Of a stretch of 59,601 nucleotides of DNA, positions 2,256 through 30,756 are shown in pieces. Made by a program: the position numbers and the translations under genes. How positions within the stretch are numbered: the first letter of the stretch is position 1; every line of letters starts with the position of its first letter. The notes beneath the pieces are model-generated. The model ran no database searches and was not told the DNA's origin. It saw only the letters and a program-made list of their open reading frames with translations. This stretch comes from Gammaproteobacteria bacterium (GTDB taxonomy: Bacteria > Pseudomonadota > Gammaproteobacteria > WOZS01). The stretch spans positions 1-59,601 of the forward strand of contig WOZS01000005.1 of assembly GCA_011620135.1 (NCBI GenBank). Direction: 5' to 3'.

Positions 2256-2944
2256 AACGGCCCCGCTGGCGGCAGACTGCCCTGGCCCTGCCGCCTTTGC
2301 AGGGGCCCACATTGGCCAATTTCATCATCGGCGACAACGCTGTGTTGCTGCACCTGCTGGAGCAGATCAGCGCCGGGGCTGCCGTTCCAAGGCGCATGCA
2401 TCTGGTGGGGCCCGCCGGCTGCGGCAAGAGTCATCTGCTGCATGCCGTGGGGACGGCGGTCCTGCAGCGCGGCGGGATGGTGCGCAAGATCGATCTCGAG
2501 GAGATTCCTGCGGTGGATGATGCCTGCTGGCAGTTGAGCGAGCTTGTCATCATCGATGGCCTGGACGTGACACGGCTCGATCCCCAGCGAGCCGGCCAAC
2601 TGGTGGCCCTGGATGCCCATGGTGGCGGGGCATGGCTTTCGGCCAGCAGGACCCACCCCGGTTCATGCCCGGCGCTGGTGCCGGACCTGGCCTCGCGCCT
2701 GGCGGCAGACAGCTTCGTGGTGCAACCGCTTGACGAGCAGGGCCGGGAGCATGCCCTGCGGGCCTACGCCAGGGACCGGGGTATCATGCTGTCGGAACAT
2801 GTCTGGCGCTATCTGTTGGCCCGGGCCGAGCGGAGCATGACCGAGCTTACAGCGCTGCTGGACCGCATGGACCGTGCGTCCCTCAGTGAGAGTCGCCCCA
2901 TCACGGTGCCTTTCCTGCGCACTCTCTTGCAGTCCACATCCTGA
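2252..2944 (+). CDS. hda: DnaA regulatory inactivator Hda
   Basis: ATG at 2252 overlaps the upstream stop (ATGA). Clamp-binding-like QTALAL, NFIIGDN, Walker A GPAGCGKSHL, PDLASRL, RSMTEL. Confidence 0.85.
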   Translation: MKRPRWRQTALALPPLQGPTLANFIIGDNAVLLHLLEQISAGAAVPRRMHLVGPAGCGKSHLLHAVGTAVLQRGGMVRKIDLEEIPAVDDACWQLSELVIIDGLDVTRLDPQRAGQLVALDAHGGGAWLSASRTHPGSCPALVPDLASRLAADSFVVQPLDEQGREHALRAYARDRGIMLSEHVWRYLLARAERSMTELTALLDRMDRASLSESRPITVPFLRTLLQSTS

Positions 2945-26966: not shown

Positions 26967-27088
26967 CGCCATCCATGCTTGGTGAGATGGGTGAGATCAT
27001 GGTTGACGAAGAGAGGCGTGCCTGACCGGATCTTGTTTTTTGCATGTATCATCTTCATTGATTTGCATTGAGGAATTGTGGAGCAGCT

Positions 27089-27625
27089 ATGACTGTGTGG
27101 CGCCTTCGCGGCAGGACCGGCAGCACCGGCAGAACCGTTTTGTTTCTTGGTCTCCTGATGATGGTCGGCATGGCATGGGGTGCTGCATGGACGGTCTATG
27201 CCACAGAGCAGGCCAAGTTCAGATTATCCTACCCGGCCAACTGGCGGCTGACGGAATGGGAGCAACCGCCAGCCGATGAAGAAAAACTGTTCCGTGCCGA
27301 TTTACCGCTGATCAAGCTGCCCGGAGCGAAACATATCCTGGAAACCGCGCACCCCATCGGCCCTGTGGTGCGCCTGGATGGTCCCCATGGGGCCGAGGTG
27401 ACCGCTATGGCGATTCCCCTTCCGGCACTGCCGGCTTACCAGATGAGCCAGGCTTTGGCCAAGAATCGTCTTGGCACCAGCAAGGACGGGCGCAGCGCTC
27501 TGCTTCATGCCCAAAACGGTGCCACGGCCTTGGGCATCGTCATCATGAAAGCGCCGGCTGGACAGTTCGACCAGCTGAACAAGACGTACTTTGCGGAGAT
27601 CGCCAAGCGCTTCGAAGCCCGCTAG
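27089..27625 (+). CDS. Exported or membrane-anchored hypothetical protein, possibly PsbP/DcrB-like
   Basis: N-terminal hydrophobic segment followed by FRLSYPANW. Start uncertain. Confidence 0.55.
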   Translation: MTVWRLRGRTGSTGRTVLFLGLLMMVGMAWGAAWTVYATEQAKFRLSYPANWRLTEWEQPPADEEKLFRADLPLIKLPGAKHILETAHPIGPVVRLDGPHGAEVTAMAIPLPALPAYQMSQALAKNRLGTSKDGRSALLHAQNGATALGIVIMKAPAGQFDQLNKTYFAEIAKRFEAR

Positions 27626-27632
27626 GGGCATC

Positions 27633-28409
27633 ATGACGCCCATCATGCTAGTAAGCTGGAATGTGAACTCCATCCGGGTACGCCTGGAGCATCTGCTGGC
27701 CTATCTCGAATCCAGCCATCCTGATGTGGTGGGTCTCCAGGAGACCAAGGTGAACGATGGGCATTTTCCTCGACAGCACATCGAGGAGGCTGGATATCGG
27801 GTGCATCATGTGGGTACTGGTGCTTATAGCGGCGTGGCTTTGCTGAGCCGGGAACATCTGGAGGATCTCTGTTGCGCTTTGCCCGGCGATGAGCAGGCGC
27901 CGCGTTTCATCTCGGCATTTACCTGCGGGATGCGCGTTGTCAACATCTATGCGCCCAATGGCCAGGCTGTCGATAGCCCGCAGTACGAATACAAGCTGGC
28001 TTGGTACGAGAAACTGCATCATTATCTGCGGCATCTCGATCCCGCCACGCCCACGGTGGTGATGGGTGATTTCAACGTGGCACCCACCGATCTGGATGTC
28101 CATGATCCACAAGCCTGGCATGAACACCTGCTGTGCAGCACCAAGGAGCGCCAGGCGCTGCAGGGTATTACGGCCCTTGGCTTTGAGGACATGTTTCGCC
28201 TGCACCATCCAGATGAGCGCCAGTTCAGTTGGTGGGATTACCGGCAGGGGGCTTTTCGCCGCAACATGGGCCTGCGGATCGACCTGGTCCTGGCCAATGA
28301 GGTTGCCAAATCCTGTTGTGTTGCTGGAGCCATCGACAAAACACCACGCTCCTGGGAACGACCCTCGGATCATGCCCCTGTGATGGCCACCTTTGCTTTG
28401 GGTGCCTGA
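27633..28409 (+). CDS. xth: Exodeoxyribonuclease III (AP endonuclease)
   Basis: SWNVNSIR, GLQETK, NIYAPNG, MGDFNVAP, FSWWDYR, GLRID, PSDHAPV. Confidence 0.96.
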   Translation: MTPIMLVSWNVNSIRVRLEHLLAYLESSHPDVVGLQETKVNDGHFPRQHIEEAGYRVHHVGTGAYSGVALLSREHLEDLCCALPGDEQAPRFISAFTCGMRVVNIYAPNGQAVDSPQYEYKLAWYEKLHHYLRHLDPATPTVVMGDFNVAPTDLDVHDPQAWHEHLLCSTKERQALQGITALGFEDMFRLHHPDERQFSWWDYRQGAFRRNMGLRIDLVLANEVAKSCCVAGAIDKTPRSWERPSDHAPVMATFALGA

Positions 28410-28425
28410 TGCTTTGGGTGCCTGA
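28394..28425 (+). repeat. 16-nt exact tandem duplication spanning the xth stop codon
   Basis: TGCTTTGGGTGCCTGA at 28394-28409 and 28410-28425. Confidence 0.9.
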
Positions 28426-28462
28426 GTTCTGTGAGGGCGCTGCTGCAGATATAGAGCGTCAA

Positions 28463-28674
28463 TTATGCACAGCTTGTCAGCGTGACGTGGTCTTGATACC
28501 GGGGCATGCACCTCATCTGTTACGTTAGCAGCTAGATAACGTAACTACTTGATAAATAAAGAAATTATTTTCTGGTTCATCATGAACCAGCCGGGGTTCA
28601 GCCTTGATCTGCCGGGCTCTTACAAGACTTTTCACCAAACTATCCCCCAAGTTATCCACAGATTTTGTGAGTTA
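28463..28674. promoter_or_regulatory. DnaA-box cluster with IHF site (oriC/datA/DARS-like element)
   Basis: TTATGCACA at 28463-28471 and TTATCCACA at 28652-28660 match TTWTNCACA. IHF consensus TATCAAGTAGTTA on the minus strand at 28542-28554 with an adjacent A/T tract. Degenerate boxes at 28629, 28640 and 28666. Confidence 0.65.
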
Positions 28675-28794
28675 AAAAAGTCAACGGGATCATGCCGTTT
28701 TGCGGCATGGTCCCGAAGGGCGCTCTGGGTAGTTGGTCGGCATCGGGGCCTGACCCGCACTCATGCCGTGGCAAGAACAAGCCGTGCGGAGGTT

Positions 28795-29472
28795 TTATGA
28801 AGCAGTCCGTGGCGTTTCCTGATGCGCATCCGCTTCATGGTGATTGCCCGCAAAACGGCAGAGGTCGCAGACGAGGCATGCTGTGCAGCGAGGCCGCCGA
28901 GCCAGGCACACATAGCGGCCATGCAGGACCAGCCAGTGGTGCAGGTGGTGGCGGTAGGGTTCGGGAACAATGGCCTCGAGCTCTTTTTCGATGGCCAGCG
29001 GCGTCGTGCCTTTGGCCAGGCCCAGGCGTCTGGCCACGCGCTGCACATGGGTGTCCACGCCGATGGTGGGCTGATTGAAAACGGTGTTCAAAATGATATT
29101 GGCCGTCTTGCGGCCCACCCCCGGCAGGGCCATGAGCGCCTCCCGGCTGGCCGGCACCTCGCCGCCATGGCGCTCCAGCAACAACCGGCTGGCAGCAATG
29201 ACATGCCGAGCCTTGCTGCGATAGAGTCCCAGGGACTGGAACTGCCTGGCAAGACCTTCTTCACCCAGGGCCACCATGGCCACAGGGTGAGGTGCCATGG
29301 CAAAGAGTTTGTCCGTCACATTGTTGACCGACTTGTCGGTACTCTGGGCCGAGAGCATCACCGCCACCAGGAGCTGATATGGCGTTTCATAATGCAACTC
29401 GGTGGCCGGGTTGGGATCGTGGGCCGCAAAGCGTTCCAGGATGGCCAGGATGCGCTGCTGCTCAGCGCTCAT
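28795..29472 (-). CDS. nth: Endonuclease III
   Basis: LLVAVMLSAQSTD, HhH LPGVGRKTAN, VDTHV, 4Fe-4S motif C-x6-C-x2-C-x5-C. Confidence 0.96.
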   Translation of the reverse strand: MSAEQQRILAILERFAAHDPNPATELHYETPYQLLVAVMLSAQSTDKSVNNVTDKLFAMAPHPVAMVALGEEGLARQFQSLGLYRSKARHVIAASRLLLERHGGEVPASREALMALPGVGRKTANIILNTVFNQPTIGVDTHVQRVARRLGLAKGTTPLAIEKELEAIVPEPYRHHLHHWLVLHGRYVCLARRPRCTACLVCDLCRFAGNHHEADAHQETPRTAS

Positions 29473-29965
29473 AGGTGACAAAGGTCATGGCGTAGGCGTT
29501 GCGCGCATCGGCTTTGCGCTCACGGCGTGCCACCTCATGCCAACCGGCCTGTATGGGATCTGGTTGTGGAAAGAAGCGATCACCAGCAAAGGTGGCGTGG
29601 ATGCGGGTGAGGTAGAGGCGGCTTGCCTGTGGCAGGAACAGTGCAAAAATGGCTGCTCCGCCAATGACCATGATCTCATGGTTTTTGGCAGCGGCGCAGA
29701 GAGCCGCTTCCTTGTCCTGCACCCAGATCACCTCGGGAGGCATGGCCTGCGGTGTGGGGTCATGGCTCATGACCACATGACGTCGCCCAGGCAGCACCCG
29801 CCCCAGGCTCTCGAAGGTCTTGCGCCCCATGATCATGGGCTTGCCCATGGTGCAGGACTTGAAATGCCCAAGATCGGCTGGCAGATGCCAGGGCAGTGTG
29901 CCATTGGCCCCGATACAGCCCTGCTCATCCATGGCCACGATGAGGGCAAGGTGTGGGGTGTTCAT
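29462..29965 (-). CDS. folA: Dihydrofolate reductase
   Basis: [40 protein letters not shown]. Confidence 0.96.
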
Positions 29966-30756
29966 ACCGCAATGGGGGCAGGCAGGGCATCATGGGGCGC
30001 GTAACCCTGGATCCCGATGTCTTCGGGCTTGAACTCCCACAGGACGGTGCACCCGGGATCGAGCTCCAGGGTAGGGAGGCGTCGAGGTTCGCGTTGCAGC
30101 TGGGTCTGGGCTTGTTGTATGTGGTTGCGATAGAGATGGATATCACCAAAACTGACGAGCAGCTCCCCTACACCAAGACCAACCACCTGAGCGACCATGT
30201 GGGTGAGCAGGGCATAGCTTGCAATATTGAAGGGCACGCCCAGGAAGACATCGGCGCTGCGCTGGTAGAGGTGGCAGGACAAGCGCCCCTGTGCCACGTA
30301 GAATTGGAATAACAGATGGCATGGCGGCAGCGCCATCAGTGGCAGTTGCGCCACATTCCAGGCGCTGACCACATGGCGCCTGCTGTGGGGATCGTGCCGT
30401 AATTGTTCCACGACCTGCCCGAGCTGGTCGATGGTGGCGCCATCTGGAGCAGGCCAGGCGCGCCACTGGCGGCCATAGATGGGTCCCAGCTCACCATCGG
30501 AGTCGGCCCATTCATCCCAGATGTGCACACCGGCTTCCTGGAGCGGCCTGATATTGGTCTCGCCGCGCAGGAACCACAGCAGTTCATGGACGATGCCCCG
30601 GAAAAAGACCTTCTTGGTGGTGAGCAGGGGAAAGCCTCGTTGCAGATCCAGCCGCAGCTGGCCGCCGAAGACGCTCAATGTCCCCACGCCGGTGCGGTCG
30701 TCCTTGTGAAGGCCTTGGCGCAGCACCGTCTCCAGCAGCTGCAGGTACTCGCGCAC
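29962..30756 (-). CDS. thyA: Thymidylate synthase
   Basis: [46 protein letters not shown]. Confidence 0.98.

What the first reader, a model, noticed from the sequence alone, without database searches (positions are those of the whole stretch)
28410..28794. DnaA boxes flanking a consensus IHF site between convergent repair genes: oriC, datA or DARS candidate
Seen: 385 bp between two stop codons, so no promoter is needed here. Same-orientation boxes TTATGCACA (28463) and TTATCCACA (28652) flank a perfect WATCAANNNNTTR site (28542-28554, minus strand) with its A/T tract. Degenerate boxes at 28629 and 28640 precede the perfect box at 11-12 bp spacing, and an opposed one lies at 28666. Established: DnaA boxes plus IHF define E. 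coli oriC, datA and DARS2. Inference: with no clear 13-mer DUE and few GATCs, a datA/DARS-type DnaA-cycle element fits at least as well as an origin. An xth-nth location would be unusual for either. hda, priA and polA in the same window are compatible with an origin-proximal region.
Basis: partly seen in the sequence, partly recalled or inferred. Interest (0 to 1): 0.65.

Follow-up and report, generated by a model that had tools for sequence, protein, structure and literature searches.

The report
DARS2-like DnaA/IHF/Fis control element
The gap between the xth and nth repair genes is not a replication origin; it holds one copy of a 215-bp docking platform for DnaA, IHF and probably Fis, built like the E. 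coli DARS elements that recharge DnaA, and this platform is widespread in Gamma- and Betaproteobacteria although published only for E. coli and close relatives.

Summary
The motifs are the four parts of one conserved element, window 28458-28675:
- a far DnaA box, TTATGCACA;
- 70 bp on, a perfect IHF site;
- 19 bp on, a palindromic Fis-type 15-mer;
- then three DnaA boxes laid out III-3bp-II-5bp-I, with box I inverted.

That three-box layout is exactly the core of E. coli DARS1 and DARS2. The triple occurs in 82 of 121 sampled genomes of the class (control 0). The exact composite occurs in at least 120 named Gamma/Betaproteobacteria. The modal distances there (179, 88 and 70 bp) are the window's own. 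A profile built from 31 relatives finds one hit in this 2.1-Mb genome, this site, at E = 2e-14.

It is not oriC. GC skew stays positive across the whole contig, there is no unwinding element, and dnaA lies on another contig. In complete genomes the element sits 0.1-1 Mb from dnaA, often in several copies.

DnaA, Hda, IHF and Fis are all encoded. The most likely function is DARS2-like control of the DnaA nucleotide state.

Caveats: boxes I and III and the Fis site are weak here. DnaA carries Ala at the E. coli Gln208 position, which E. coli needs for DARS activity. No biochemistry exists.

The parts
27591..28409 (+). xth (exodeoxyribonuclease III), left flank, reading towards the element. The true start is probably downstream of the TTG at 27591.
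   Evidence: TIGR00195 272 bits against a cut-off of 183; Pfam Exo_endo_phos.
28458..28675 (+). The whole conserved DnaA/IHF/Fis platform (DARS2-like element), oriented far box -> triple.
   Evidence: nhmmer profile of 31 relatives: the only hit in the genome, E = 1.9e-14, 53 bits, model positions 11-223 of 240. Alignment A2.
28463..28471 (+). Far DnaA box TTATGCACA. A possible counterpart of E. coli DARS2 DnaA box V, which however has the opposite orientation.
   Evidence: A same-orientation TTATNCACA is perfect in 71 and has one mismatch in 33 of 114 named loci at -200..-165 (controls 0-2). N = G in 46 of 71. Modal offset 179-181; window 179.
28542..28554 (-). IHF consensus site. It reads TAACTACTTGATA on the + strand (TAAnnnnTTGATW) and is followed by an A/T tract at 28555-28572.
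   Evidence: Perfect consensus. The same strand and the same 87-90 bp offset to the triple occur in relatives; modal offset 88, window 88.
28574..28588 (.). Fis-type 15-mer GGTTCATCATGAACC, a perfect palindrome. It matches 4 of the 6 specified positions of GnnYAnnnnnTRnnC.
   Evidence: At the same offset (-68), 44% of 120 named loci match the Fis consensus perfectly and 74% with at most 1 mismatch, against a background of 0.8%. Stack.
28640..28648 (+). DnaA box III (CTATCCCCC, 6 of 9), same direction as box II, 3 bp before it.
   Evidence: Same position as box III of E. coli DARS1/2.
28652..28660 (+). DnaA box II (TTATCCACA, perfect), followed by the conserved G.
   Evidence: One of only 6 perfect boxes in the genome. 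Invariant in alignments A1 and A2.
28666..28674 (-). DnaA box I (TGTGAGTTA on the + strand, 6 of 9), inverted and 5 bp after box II (head-to-head pair).
   Evidence: Nearly every listed perfect pair in the class has a 5-bp spacer; one has 6 bp. The 5-bp spacer and opposite orientation are stated for DARS in PMC6868365.
28675..28712 (-). Probable intrinsic terminator of nth: a hairpin with a T-run that abuts box I.
   Evidence: Terminator-like site at 28699..28683 with tail GACTTTTTTA.
28795..29481 (-). nth (endonuclease III), right flank, reading towards the element.
   Evidence: TIGR01083 255 bits against a cut-off of 212.

Best explanation
The xth-nth gap carries the single copy in this genome of a conserved, non-coding platform of about 215 bp for DnaA, IHF and Fis. 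[quoted passage not shown]

Proposed working; only the sequence layout is shown, every binding step and activity is inferred:
1. DnaA binds the perfect box II.
2. It recruits further DnaA to the weak box III (head-to-tail, 3-bp spacer) and to the inverted box I (head-to-head, 5-bp spacer).
3. IHF, bound 88 bp away, bends the DNA sharply. This folds the far DnaA box and the Fis-type site back onto the three-box core.
4. The folded complex changes the nucleotide state of DnaA. Most likely it releases ADP, so that apo-DnaA rebinds ATP, as at E. coli DARS2.
5. This helps set the timing of initiation at an origin elsewhere on the chromosome.

The element lies between two convergent genes, so it acts as a free-standing chromosomal site and not as a promoter.
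For: Shown by sequence:
- The core is III-3-II-5-I with box I inverted. That is identical to E. coli DARS1 (TTATCCACT-5-TGTGGATAA-3-TGTGTATTA) and to DARS2 (TTATTCACC-5-TGTGGATAG-3-TGTGAAGAA). PMC6868365 describes this as the essential DARS core.
- Perfect head-to-head box pairs occur in 168 of 401 genomes of the class, against 2 for the control. The spacer is 5 bp in all but one listed case.
- The full triple occurs in 82 of 121 genomes, control 0.
- The IHF site has a fixed offset and strand in relatives, and the window has the modal values 179/88/70 bp exactly.
- The far box and the Fis consensus are conserved at fixed positions.
- A family profile gives one hit in the genome, here, at E = 1.9e-14. 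It also matches E. coli DARS1 (E = 5e-9) and DARS2 from the IHF site to the core, but only 20 nt of datA.
- The exact composite occurs in at least 120 named Gamma/Betaproteobacteria.
- Neighbouring genes occur in all four orientation combinations (29/26/22/18), and nothing is conserved beyond box I.
- The trans-acting factors are encoded: DnaA with all DNA-contact residues conserved, an Hda-like protein, IHF alpha and beta, and Fis.

From the literature: E. coli DARS2 needs the core, IHF and Fis, and has a consensus DnaA box V beyond the IHF site (PMC4245941; PMC8682772).
Against: - There are no binding or activity data for any member outside E. coli and its close relatives.
- In this copy, boxes I and III each match only 6 of 9 positions, and the Fis-type site only 4 of 6 specified positions.
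- DnaA has Ala at the position of E. coli Gln208. In E. coli the Q208A mutant is impaired in DARS-dependent ADP release (PMC6868365). Seven of 10 complete genomes that carry the element also have Ala there. An E. coli-type head-to-head interface is therefore not conserved.
- The layout differs from E. coli DARS2. The conserved Fis-type site lies between IHF and the core, where E. coli has the dispensable FBS1 by my reading. Beyond IHF there is a direct DnaA box instead of FBS2-3 plus an inverted box V.
- DnaA boxes on both sides of an IHF site are also the plan of datA.
- The bare triple also occurs in some families of other classes of the phylum. It may be a general high-affinity DnaA module.
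Confidence: 0.6

Rival explanations
1. datA-like or titration element. The same platform binds ATP-DnaA on both sides of the IHF bend and promotes ATP hydrolysis, or simply sequesters DnaA. It would damp initiation rather than stimulate it.
For: - E. coli datA also has DnaA boxes on both sides of a perfect IHF site read in the same orientation: box7-3-box2, 58 bp, TAACCTATTGATA, 82 bp, box3-3-box4 inverted.
- DnaA here and in most carriers lacks Gln208, which E. coli needs for DARS activity.
- An Hda-like protein shows that DnaA-ATP hydrolysis control exists in this organism.
Against: - datA has no II-5-I head-to-head pair. Its inverted pair has a 3-bp spacer and lies differently relative to the IHF site.
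- The family profile aligns only 20 nt of datA, against 90-150 nt of DARS1 and DARS2.
- The 5-bp head-to-head spacer is almost invariant across the class. The literature ties that spacer to ADP release.
Confidence: 0.2
2. Displaced or relic transcriptional control region. The platform is ancestrally the DnaA/IHF/Fis-regulated upstream region of priA. Rearrangement left it between xth and nth, where it has little or no function.
For: - PriA is the right-hand neighbour, read in the element's direction, in 26 of 95 named loci and in G017.
- In this genome priA is only 12 kb away.
- Boxes I and III and the Fis-type site are weaker here than in relatives.
Against: - About 70% of members are not next to priA, and neighbours occur in all four orientations.
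- The distance to the priA start varies from 12 to 472 bp.
- All four parts and the exact modal spacings survive here in a reduced 2.1-Mb genome, with no gene to regulate. That argues for selection on a role independent of transcription.
Confidence: 0.1
3. Chromosomal replication origin (oriC) unlinked to dnaA.
For: - DnaA boxes plus an IHF site and a Fis-type site are also the ingredients of E. coli oriC.
- The assembly shows no convincing oriC elsewhere. No cluster of 3 or more boxes with at most 1 mismatch exists.
Against: - GC skew is positive in every 2-kb and 4-kb bin of the 59.6-kb contig, on both sides of the site.
- There is no AT-rich unwinding element. The outer flanks are the xth stop and the nth terminator.
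- Family members are multicopy and lie 4-47% of a genome length from dnaA.
- The dnaA-dnaN spacer on C1 has the highest box density, and skew turns positive there.
Confidence: 0.02

Closest known systems
E. coli DARS2 (DnaA-reactivating sequence 2, rppH-mutH spacer; Kasho 2014 PMC4245941, Miyoshi 2021 PMC8682772, Kasho 2025 PMC11724364)
   Same: - A three-box core with box I inverted 5 bp from box II, and box III direct 3 bp from box II, including the G after box II.
- An IHF site in the same orientation on the box-III side, 73-75 bp away in E. coli and 88 bp here.
- Fis-consensus sites within the element.
- A further consensus DnaA box beyond the IHF site.
- A free-standing, non-coding location far from oriC.
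   Different: - The conserved Fis-type site lies between IHF and the core. E. coli's essential FBS2-3 lies beyond IHF.
- The far DnaA box is direct here, whereas box V is inverted in E. coli. It lies 70 bp from IHF rather than about 90 bp.
- Boxes I and III are weaker here.
- The host DnaA has Ala at the Gln208 position.
- The element is not next to mutH.
- Activity is untested.
E. coli DARS1 (bioD-uvrB spacer)
   Same: - Identical core geometry.
- The family profile aligns from about 60 nt upstream of the core through the core (E = 5e-9 in a small search).
- A TTATCCCCA box in the family's far-box orientation lies 199 bp upstream.
   Different: DARS1 has no good IHF site (2 mismatches) and works without IHF or Fis in E. 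coli. It overlaps the uvrB promoter region.
E. coli datA
   Same: DnaA boxes flank a perfect IHF site. A weak box lies 3 bp before a perfect box (7-3-2). It is a non-coding chromosomal site that acts on the DnaA nucleotide state.
   Different: There is no II-5-I pair, the distances differ (58 and 82 bp), and only 20 nt align to the family profile. Its output in E. coli is the opposite one, ATP hydrolysis.
E. coli oriC (DnaA-oligomerisation region with IHF and Fis sites)
   Same: The same three proteins and a similar overall length.
   Different: This element has no unwinding element, no arrays of low-affinity boxes and no skew switch, and the family is multicopy.

Membership tests
DARS core (E. 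coli DARS1/DARS2 type) | Three DnaA boxes. Boxes I and II are opposite in orientation and separated by 5 bp. | tested here: met
   TTATCCACA (28652-60), gattt, TGTGAGTTA (28666-74). E. coli cores read. The feature is stated in PMC6868365. Box I matches only 6 of 9 positions.
DARS core (E. coli DARS1/DARS2 type) | Box III has the same direction as box II and lies next to it (3 bp in both E. coli elements). | tested here: met
   CTATCCCCC (28640-48), aag, box II. Box III matches 6 of 9 positions. The 3-bp spacing is conserved in 82 of 121 class genomes.
DARS core (E. coli DARS1/DARS2 type) | Promotes ADP dissociation from ADP-DnaA. | not testable with these tools
   This needs a [3H]ADP-DnaA release assay.
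DARS core (E. coli DARS1/DARS2 type) | DnaA Gln208 at the head-to-head interface, required in E. coli. | tested here: not met
   The position is Ala in this DnaA and in 7 of 10 complete genomes that carry the element. Gln occurs only in E. coli and G043. Phe239, Lys243 and Leu290 are conserved.
DARS2 (IHF- and Fis-activated DARS) | An IHF-binding site at a set distance from the core. | tested here: met
   Perfect TAAnnnnTTGATW at 28542-54, 88 bp from the triple. The same offset and strand occur in relatives. The E. coli IBS aligns 13 bp closer to the core. IHF alpha and beta genes are present.
DARS2 (IHF- and Fis-activated DARS) | Fis-binding sites required for activation (FBS2-3, beyond the IHF site). 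| tested here: inconclusive
   The family has a strong Fis consensus at -68, perfect in 44% of loci, but it lies between IHF and the core. The window copy matches 4 of 6 specified positions. A Fis-like gene is present (68 bits, below the 99-bit cut-off).
DARS2 (IHF- and Fis-activated DARS) | Genomic position next to mutH, as in the published homologues. | tested here: not met
   The element lies between xth and nth. Neighbours vary across the family and the commonest is priA.
datA | Boxes 2, 3 and 7 around an IHF site, promoting DnaA-ATP hydrolysis. | tested here: inconclusive
   The element has boxes on both sides of IHF, but the geometry differs from datA and only 20 nt match the profile. 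Activity cannot be tested here.
oriC | An AT-rich unwinding element beside the box cluster, and a GC-skew switch. | tested here: not met
   No skew switch. The flanks are the G+C-rich end of xth and the nth terminator.
Class-wide four-part DnaA/IHF/Fis platform (this scan's family) | Far box, IHF site, Fis-type site and triple at about 179/88/68 bp offsets. | tested here: met
   The window offsets of 179, 88 and 68 equal the modes. nhmmer E = 1.9e-14 over nearly the full model.

The most novel reading that the evidence does not exclude
The four-part platform (far DnaA box, IHF, Fis, head-to-head triple) is an ancient regulator of the initiator, ancestral to Gamma- and Betaproteobacteria and often tied to priA. 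On this reading E. coli DARS1 and DARS2 are late, rearranged derivatives of it. Most carriers have Ala at DnaA position 208, so the platform would work through a DnaA-DnaA or DnaA-Fis interface different from the E. coli model. Its output (ADP release, ATP hydrolysis, or coupling of initiation to PriA-dependent restart) could differ from that of DARS.
Probability: 0.25. Interest if true: 0.8.

Novelty: new variant of a known kind. Interest (0 to 1): 0.6.

Why it matters
Control of the DnaA nucleotide cycle by non-coding chromosomal sites (DARS1, DARS2, datA) is known experimentally only from E. coli. The papers I could read describe its conservation only for 'E. coli-related' species, out to Vibrio and Shewanella.

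This element shows the same device, in a cleaner consensus form, in a deep-branching uncultured gammaproteobacterium. It also occurs in about two thirds of sampled families of the class, including Betaproteobacteria. That makes several things possible:
- It offers many cultured, non-pathogenic organisms in which to test whether DARS-type reactivation is general, for example Dyella, Rhodanobacter, Azovibrio, Pseudoduganella and Thioalkalivibrio.
- It gives a precise consensus for annotating such sites.
- It raises a sharp mechanistic question, because the residue that E. coli needs for the head-to-head step is not conserved.

Tried and rejected
- Rfam scan of 27000-30500 at E <= 1 found no known RNA.
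- Promoter scan of the gap found none.
- oriC is rejected on skew, on the lack of an unwinding element, and on the copy number and position of family members.
- The window core gave only weak 32-nt matches in E. coli genomes by blastn, mostly on plasmids. This was not informative.
- I suspected a covarying G+C hairpin with a T-run between the Fis-type site and the triple. Folding z-scores at -48..-6 (mean -0.20) do not differ from three control regions, so I rejected the idea.
- I suspected a conserved gene, RNA or promoter downstream of the triple. Information content is zero beyond +34 in 113 stacked loci, so I rejected it.
- Weak blastn hits to window 28554-28584 in G028 and G005 are A/T-rich, and I took them as chance.
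- Fujimitsu 2009, the original DARS paper, could not be read. Its statements on conservation are known to me only through later papers.
- One literature search was badly framed and returned nothing useful.

Full report
**Observation.**
- TTATGCACA at 28463-28471 and TTATCCACA at 28652-28660 lie on the + strand.
- A perfect WATCAANNNNTTR lies on the minus strand at 28542-28554. It reads TAACTACTTGATA on the + strand and is followed by an A/T tract.
- Degenerate boxes lie at 28629 and 28640, and an opposed one at 28666.
- The flanks are exodeoxyribonuclease III (xth, 27591-28409 +) and endonuclease III (nth, 28795-29481 -). Both score above their NCBIfam cut-offs. They converge on a 385-bp gap with no promoter-like site, and a terminator-like hairpin for nth abuts the last box.

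**Chance.** The window is a whole 59.6-kb contig (C26) of a 2.1-Mb metagenome-assembled genome in 76 contigs, 62% G+C.
- The whole genome has only 11 TTATNCACA, 6 TTATCCACA and 23 IHF consensus sites.
- By my arithmetic from those counts, two boxes within 200 bp with an IHF site between them is expected about 2e-5 times.
- The gap ranks among the three densest 300-bp windows for DnaA boxes.

**Not an origin.**
- GC skew is positive in every 2-kb and 4-kb bin of the contig, on both sides of the site.
- Outside the boxes lie the G+C-rich end of xth and the nth terminator, not an unwinding element.
- dnaA-dnaN lie at the start of contig C1. Their spacer has the top box density in the genome, and skew turns positive there.
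- The assembly has no cluster of three or more near-perfect boxes. The true oriC is therefore not identified, but nothing points to this gap.

**Core geometry.** From the E. coli K-12 record I read two cores:
- DARS1: TTATCCACT-attcc-TGTGGATAA-cca-TGTGTATTA.
- DARS2: TTATTCACC-ttttc-TGTGGATAG-agt-TGTGAAGAA. I located it with the deletion primers given in PMC4585315.

In both, box I is inverted 5 bp from box II, and box III is direct 3 bp from box II. PMC6868365 describes this as the essential DARS core. The window reads CTATCCCCC-aag-TTATCCACA-gattt-TGTGAGTTA. This is III-3-II-5-I, the same geometry, including the G after box II.

**Conservation.** The genome has no relative nearer than 'same class'. 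Even so, blastn of the gap found the core in 11 genomes of the class.
- A perfect TTATCCACA-N(0-12)-TGTGGATAA occurs in 168 of 401 class genomes, against 2 for the reversed-pattern control. The spacer is 5 bp in all but one listed case.
- The full triple, with at most 2 mismatches in 25 positions, occurs in 82 of 121 genomes, control 0.
- In this genome the xth-nth site is the single best match (5 mismatches; the next best has 8).

**A four-part element.** The IHF consensus lies on the opposite strand, 87-90 bp before the triple, in relatives. In the window the distance is 88 bp.
- Alignment of 31 oriented relatives with the window and E. coli (A2) shows a far DnaA box, the IHF site, a middle motif and the triple.
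All are Gamma- or Betaproteobacteria. They include Woeseiaceae, Lysobacterales, Steroidobacter, Thiotrichales, Methylococcales, Legionellales, Thioalkalivibrio, Rhodocyclaceae and Burkholderiaceae.
- In these loci the far box, which was not part of the search pattern, is perfect in 71 and has one mismatch in 33 of 114. Controls give 0-2. N is G in 46 of 71, and the modal offset is 179-181.
- The middle motif fits the Fis consensus GnnYAnnnnnTRnnC at offset -68. It is perfect in 44% of loci and has at most 1 mismatch in 74%, against a background of 0.8%.
- The window has the modal offsets exactly (179, 88, 70). Its far box is TTATGCACA and its IHF site is perfect. Its Fis-type site is weaker: GGTTCATCATGAACC, a perfect palindrome matching 4 of 6 specified positions.
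- An nhmmer profile built from the 31 relatives alone gives one hit in the whole genome, C26:28458-28669, at E = 1.9e-14 over model positions 11-223 of 240.
- The same profile matches E. coli DARS1 (E = 5e-9) and DARS2 from the IHF site to the core, but only 20 nt of datA.

**Context.**
- Nothing is conserved beyond box I.
- Neighbouring genes occur in all four orientation combinations (29/26/22/18).
- The one recurrent neighbour is priA. It lies downstream of the triple in 26 of 95 loci, at 12-472 bp, and also in G017. In this genome priA lies 12 kb away.
- In ten complete genomes the elements lie 115 kb to about 1 Mb from dnaA (4-47% of the genome) and occur in 1-4 copies.

**Trans-acting factors.** The genome encodes the following:
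- DnaA, with all DNA-contacting residues of domain IV conserved;
- an Hda-like protein (window 2273-2932; 157 bits, below the 195-bit cut-off);
- IHF alpha and beta, and HU;
- a 93-residue Fis-like protein upstream of purH.

**Comparison with datA.** E. coli datA reads as follows:
- box7-3-box2;
- 58 bp;
- TAACCTATTGATA (IHF site);
- 82 bp;
- box3-3-box4, with box4 inverted.

Boxes on both sides of an IHF site are therefore shared with this element. The 5-bp head-to-head pair and the distances are not.

**Caveats.**
- Boxes I and III each match only 6 of 9 positions here.
- DnaA has Ala at the position of E. coli Gln208. In E. coli, Q208A impairs DARS-dependent ADP release. Seven of ten complete genomes that carry the element also have Ala there. 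The E. coli interface model does not transfer as it stands.
- The conserved Fis-type site lies between IHF and the core, not beyond IHF as the essential FBS2-3 does in E. coli. The far box is direct, whereas E. coli box V is inverted.
- The bare triple also occurs in some families of other classes of the phylum, sometimes as a symmetric four-box form.
- No experiment exists for any of these elements.

**Mechanism.** Only the conserved layout is shown. The rest is inferred:
1. DnaA binds box II and recruits DnaA to boxes I and III.
2. IHF folds the far box and the Fis-type site onto the core.
3. The complex alters the nucleotide state of DnaA.

I rate a DARS2-like output (ADP release) at about 0.6, a datA-like or titration output at 0.2, a relic of a priA control region at 0.1, and oriC at 0.02.

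[quoted passage not shown] The 2026 review gives no wider claim. Fujimitsu 2009 was not available. Earlier notes of this scan, read only after my own analysis, report the same kind of module in other genomes. They include a priA-linked one and a four-part one with Fis-type sites. My results agree with them, but I do not count them as independent evidence.

Noticed in passing
window 28394-28425: A perfect 16-bp tandem duplication, TGCTTTGGGTGCCTGA x2, spans the xth stop codon. The second copy starts right after the TGA.
   Followed up: no
G000 contig C1:1953-2110 (locus L001): The dnaA-dnaN spacer has the highest DnaA-box density in the genome (TGGGGATAA, TGTGGATTG, TTATCCACA) at 44% G+C. There is no rpmH upstream of dnaA, and the first 4 kb of C1 have about zero skew before it turns positive. 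The real oriC may be here or just off the contig end.
   Followed up: partly
G000 contigs C64:15801-16100, C27:137101-137400, C46:4801-5100: Three further windows are rich in DnaA boxes. C27's lies at a contig end and is only 31% G+C; C46's is 37% G+C with two TTTTCCACA. None matches the DARS-like profile.
   Followed up: no
alignment A4 (DnaA of 10 complete class genomes, this genome and E. coli): The E. coli DnaA Gln208 position is Ala in this genome and in 7 of the 10 complete genomes that carry the element. The other three have Ser, Gly and Arg... one of the ten (G043) has Gln, as E. coli does. Phe239 and Lys243 are invariant and Leu290 is nearly so.
   Followed up: partly
loci L063, L064, L097 and 23 others; L009: The platform lies upstream of priA, reading towards it, in 26 of 95 named loci from several orders. 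This is the only recurrent neighbour.
   Followed up: partly
G027:C1:924327 and 926331; G107:C3:2505603 and 2505959; G072:C72:14579 and 15002; G006:C15:1223 and 1495: Some genomes carry two copies of the triple 270 bp to 2 kb apart. Others carry 4-8 perfect head-to-head box pairs or triples (G053, G189, G254, G400).
   Followed up: no
G449:C4:38657-38699, G482:C29:10057-10099, G514:C98:6953-6995 (other class, same phylum): A symmetric four-box form (III-3-II-5-II'-3-III') of the DnaA-box module occurs in one family outside the class. The triple is common in two or three families of other classes and absent from most others.
   Followed up: no
window 2273-2932: The Hda-like protein aligns over the full TIGR03420 model but scores 157 bits against a cut-off of 195. 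The Pfam Bac_DnaA search at E <= 0.001 did not report it.
   Followed up: partly
L021 3452-3486 (E. coli rppH-mutH spacer): A second triple with the same I-5-II-3-III geometry (TTATCCCAG-ctttc-TGTGGATAA-cat-GGTGTAAGA) lies about 300 bp from the DARS2 core. It is presumably part of the dispensable boxes IV-VI.
   Followed up: no
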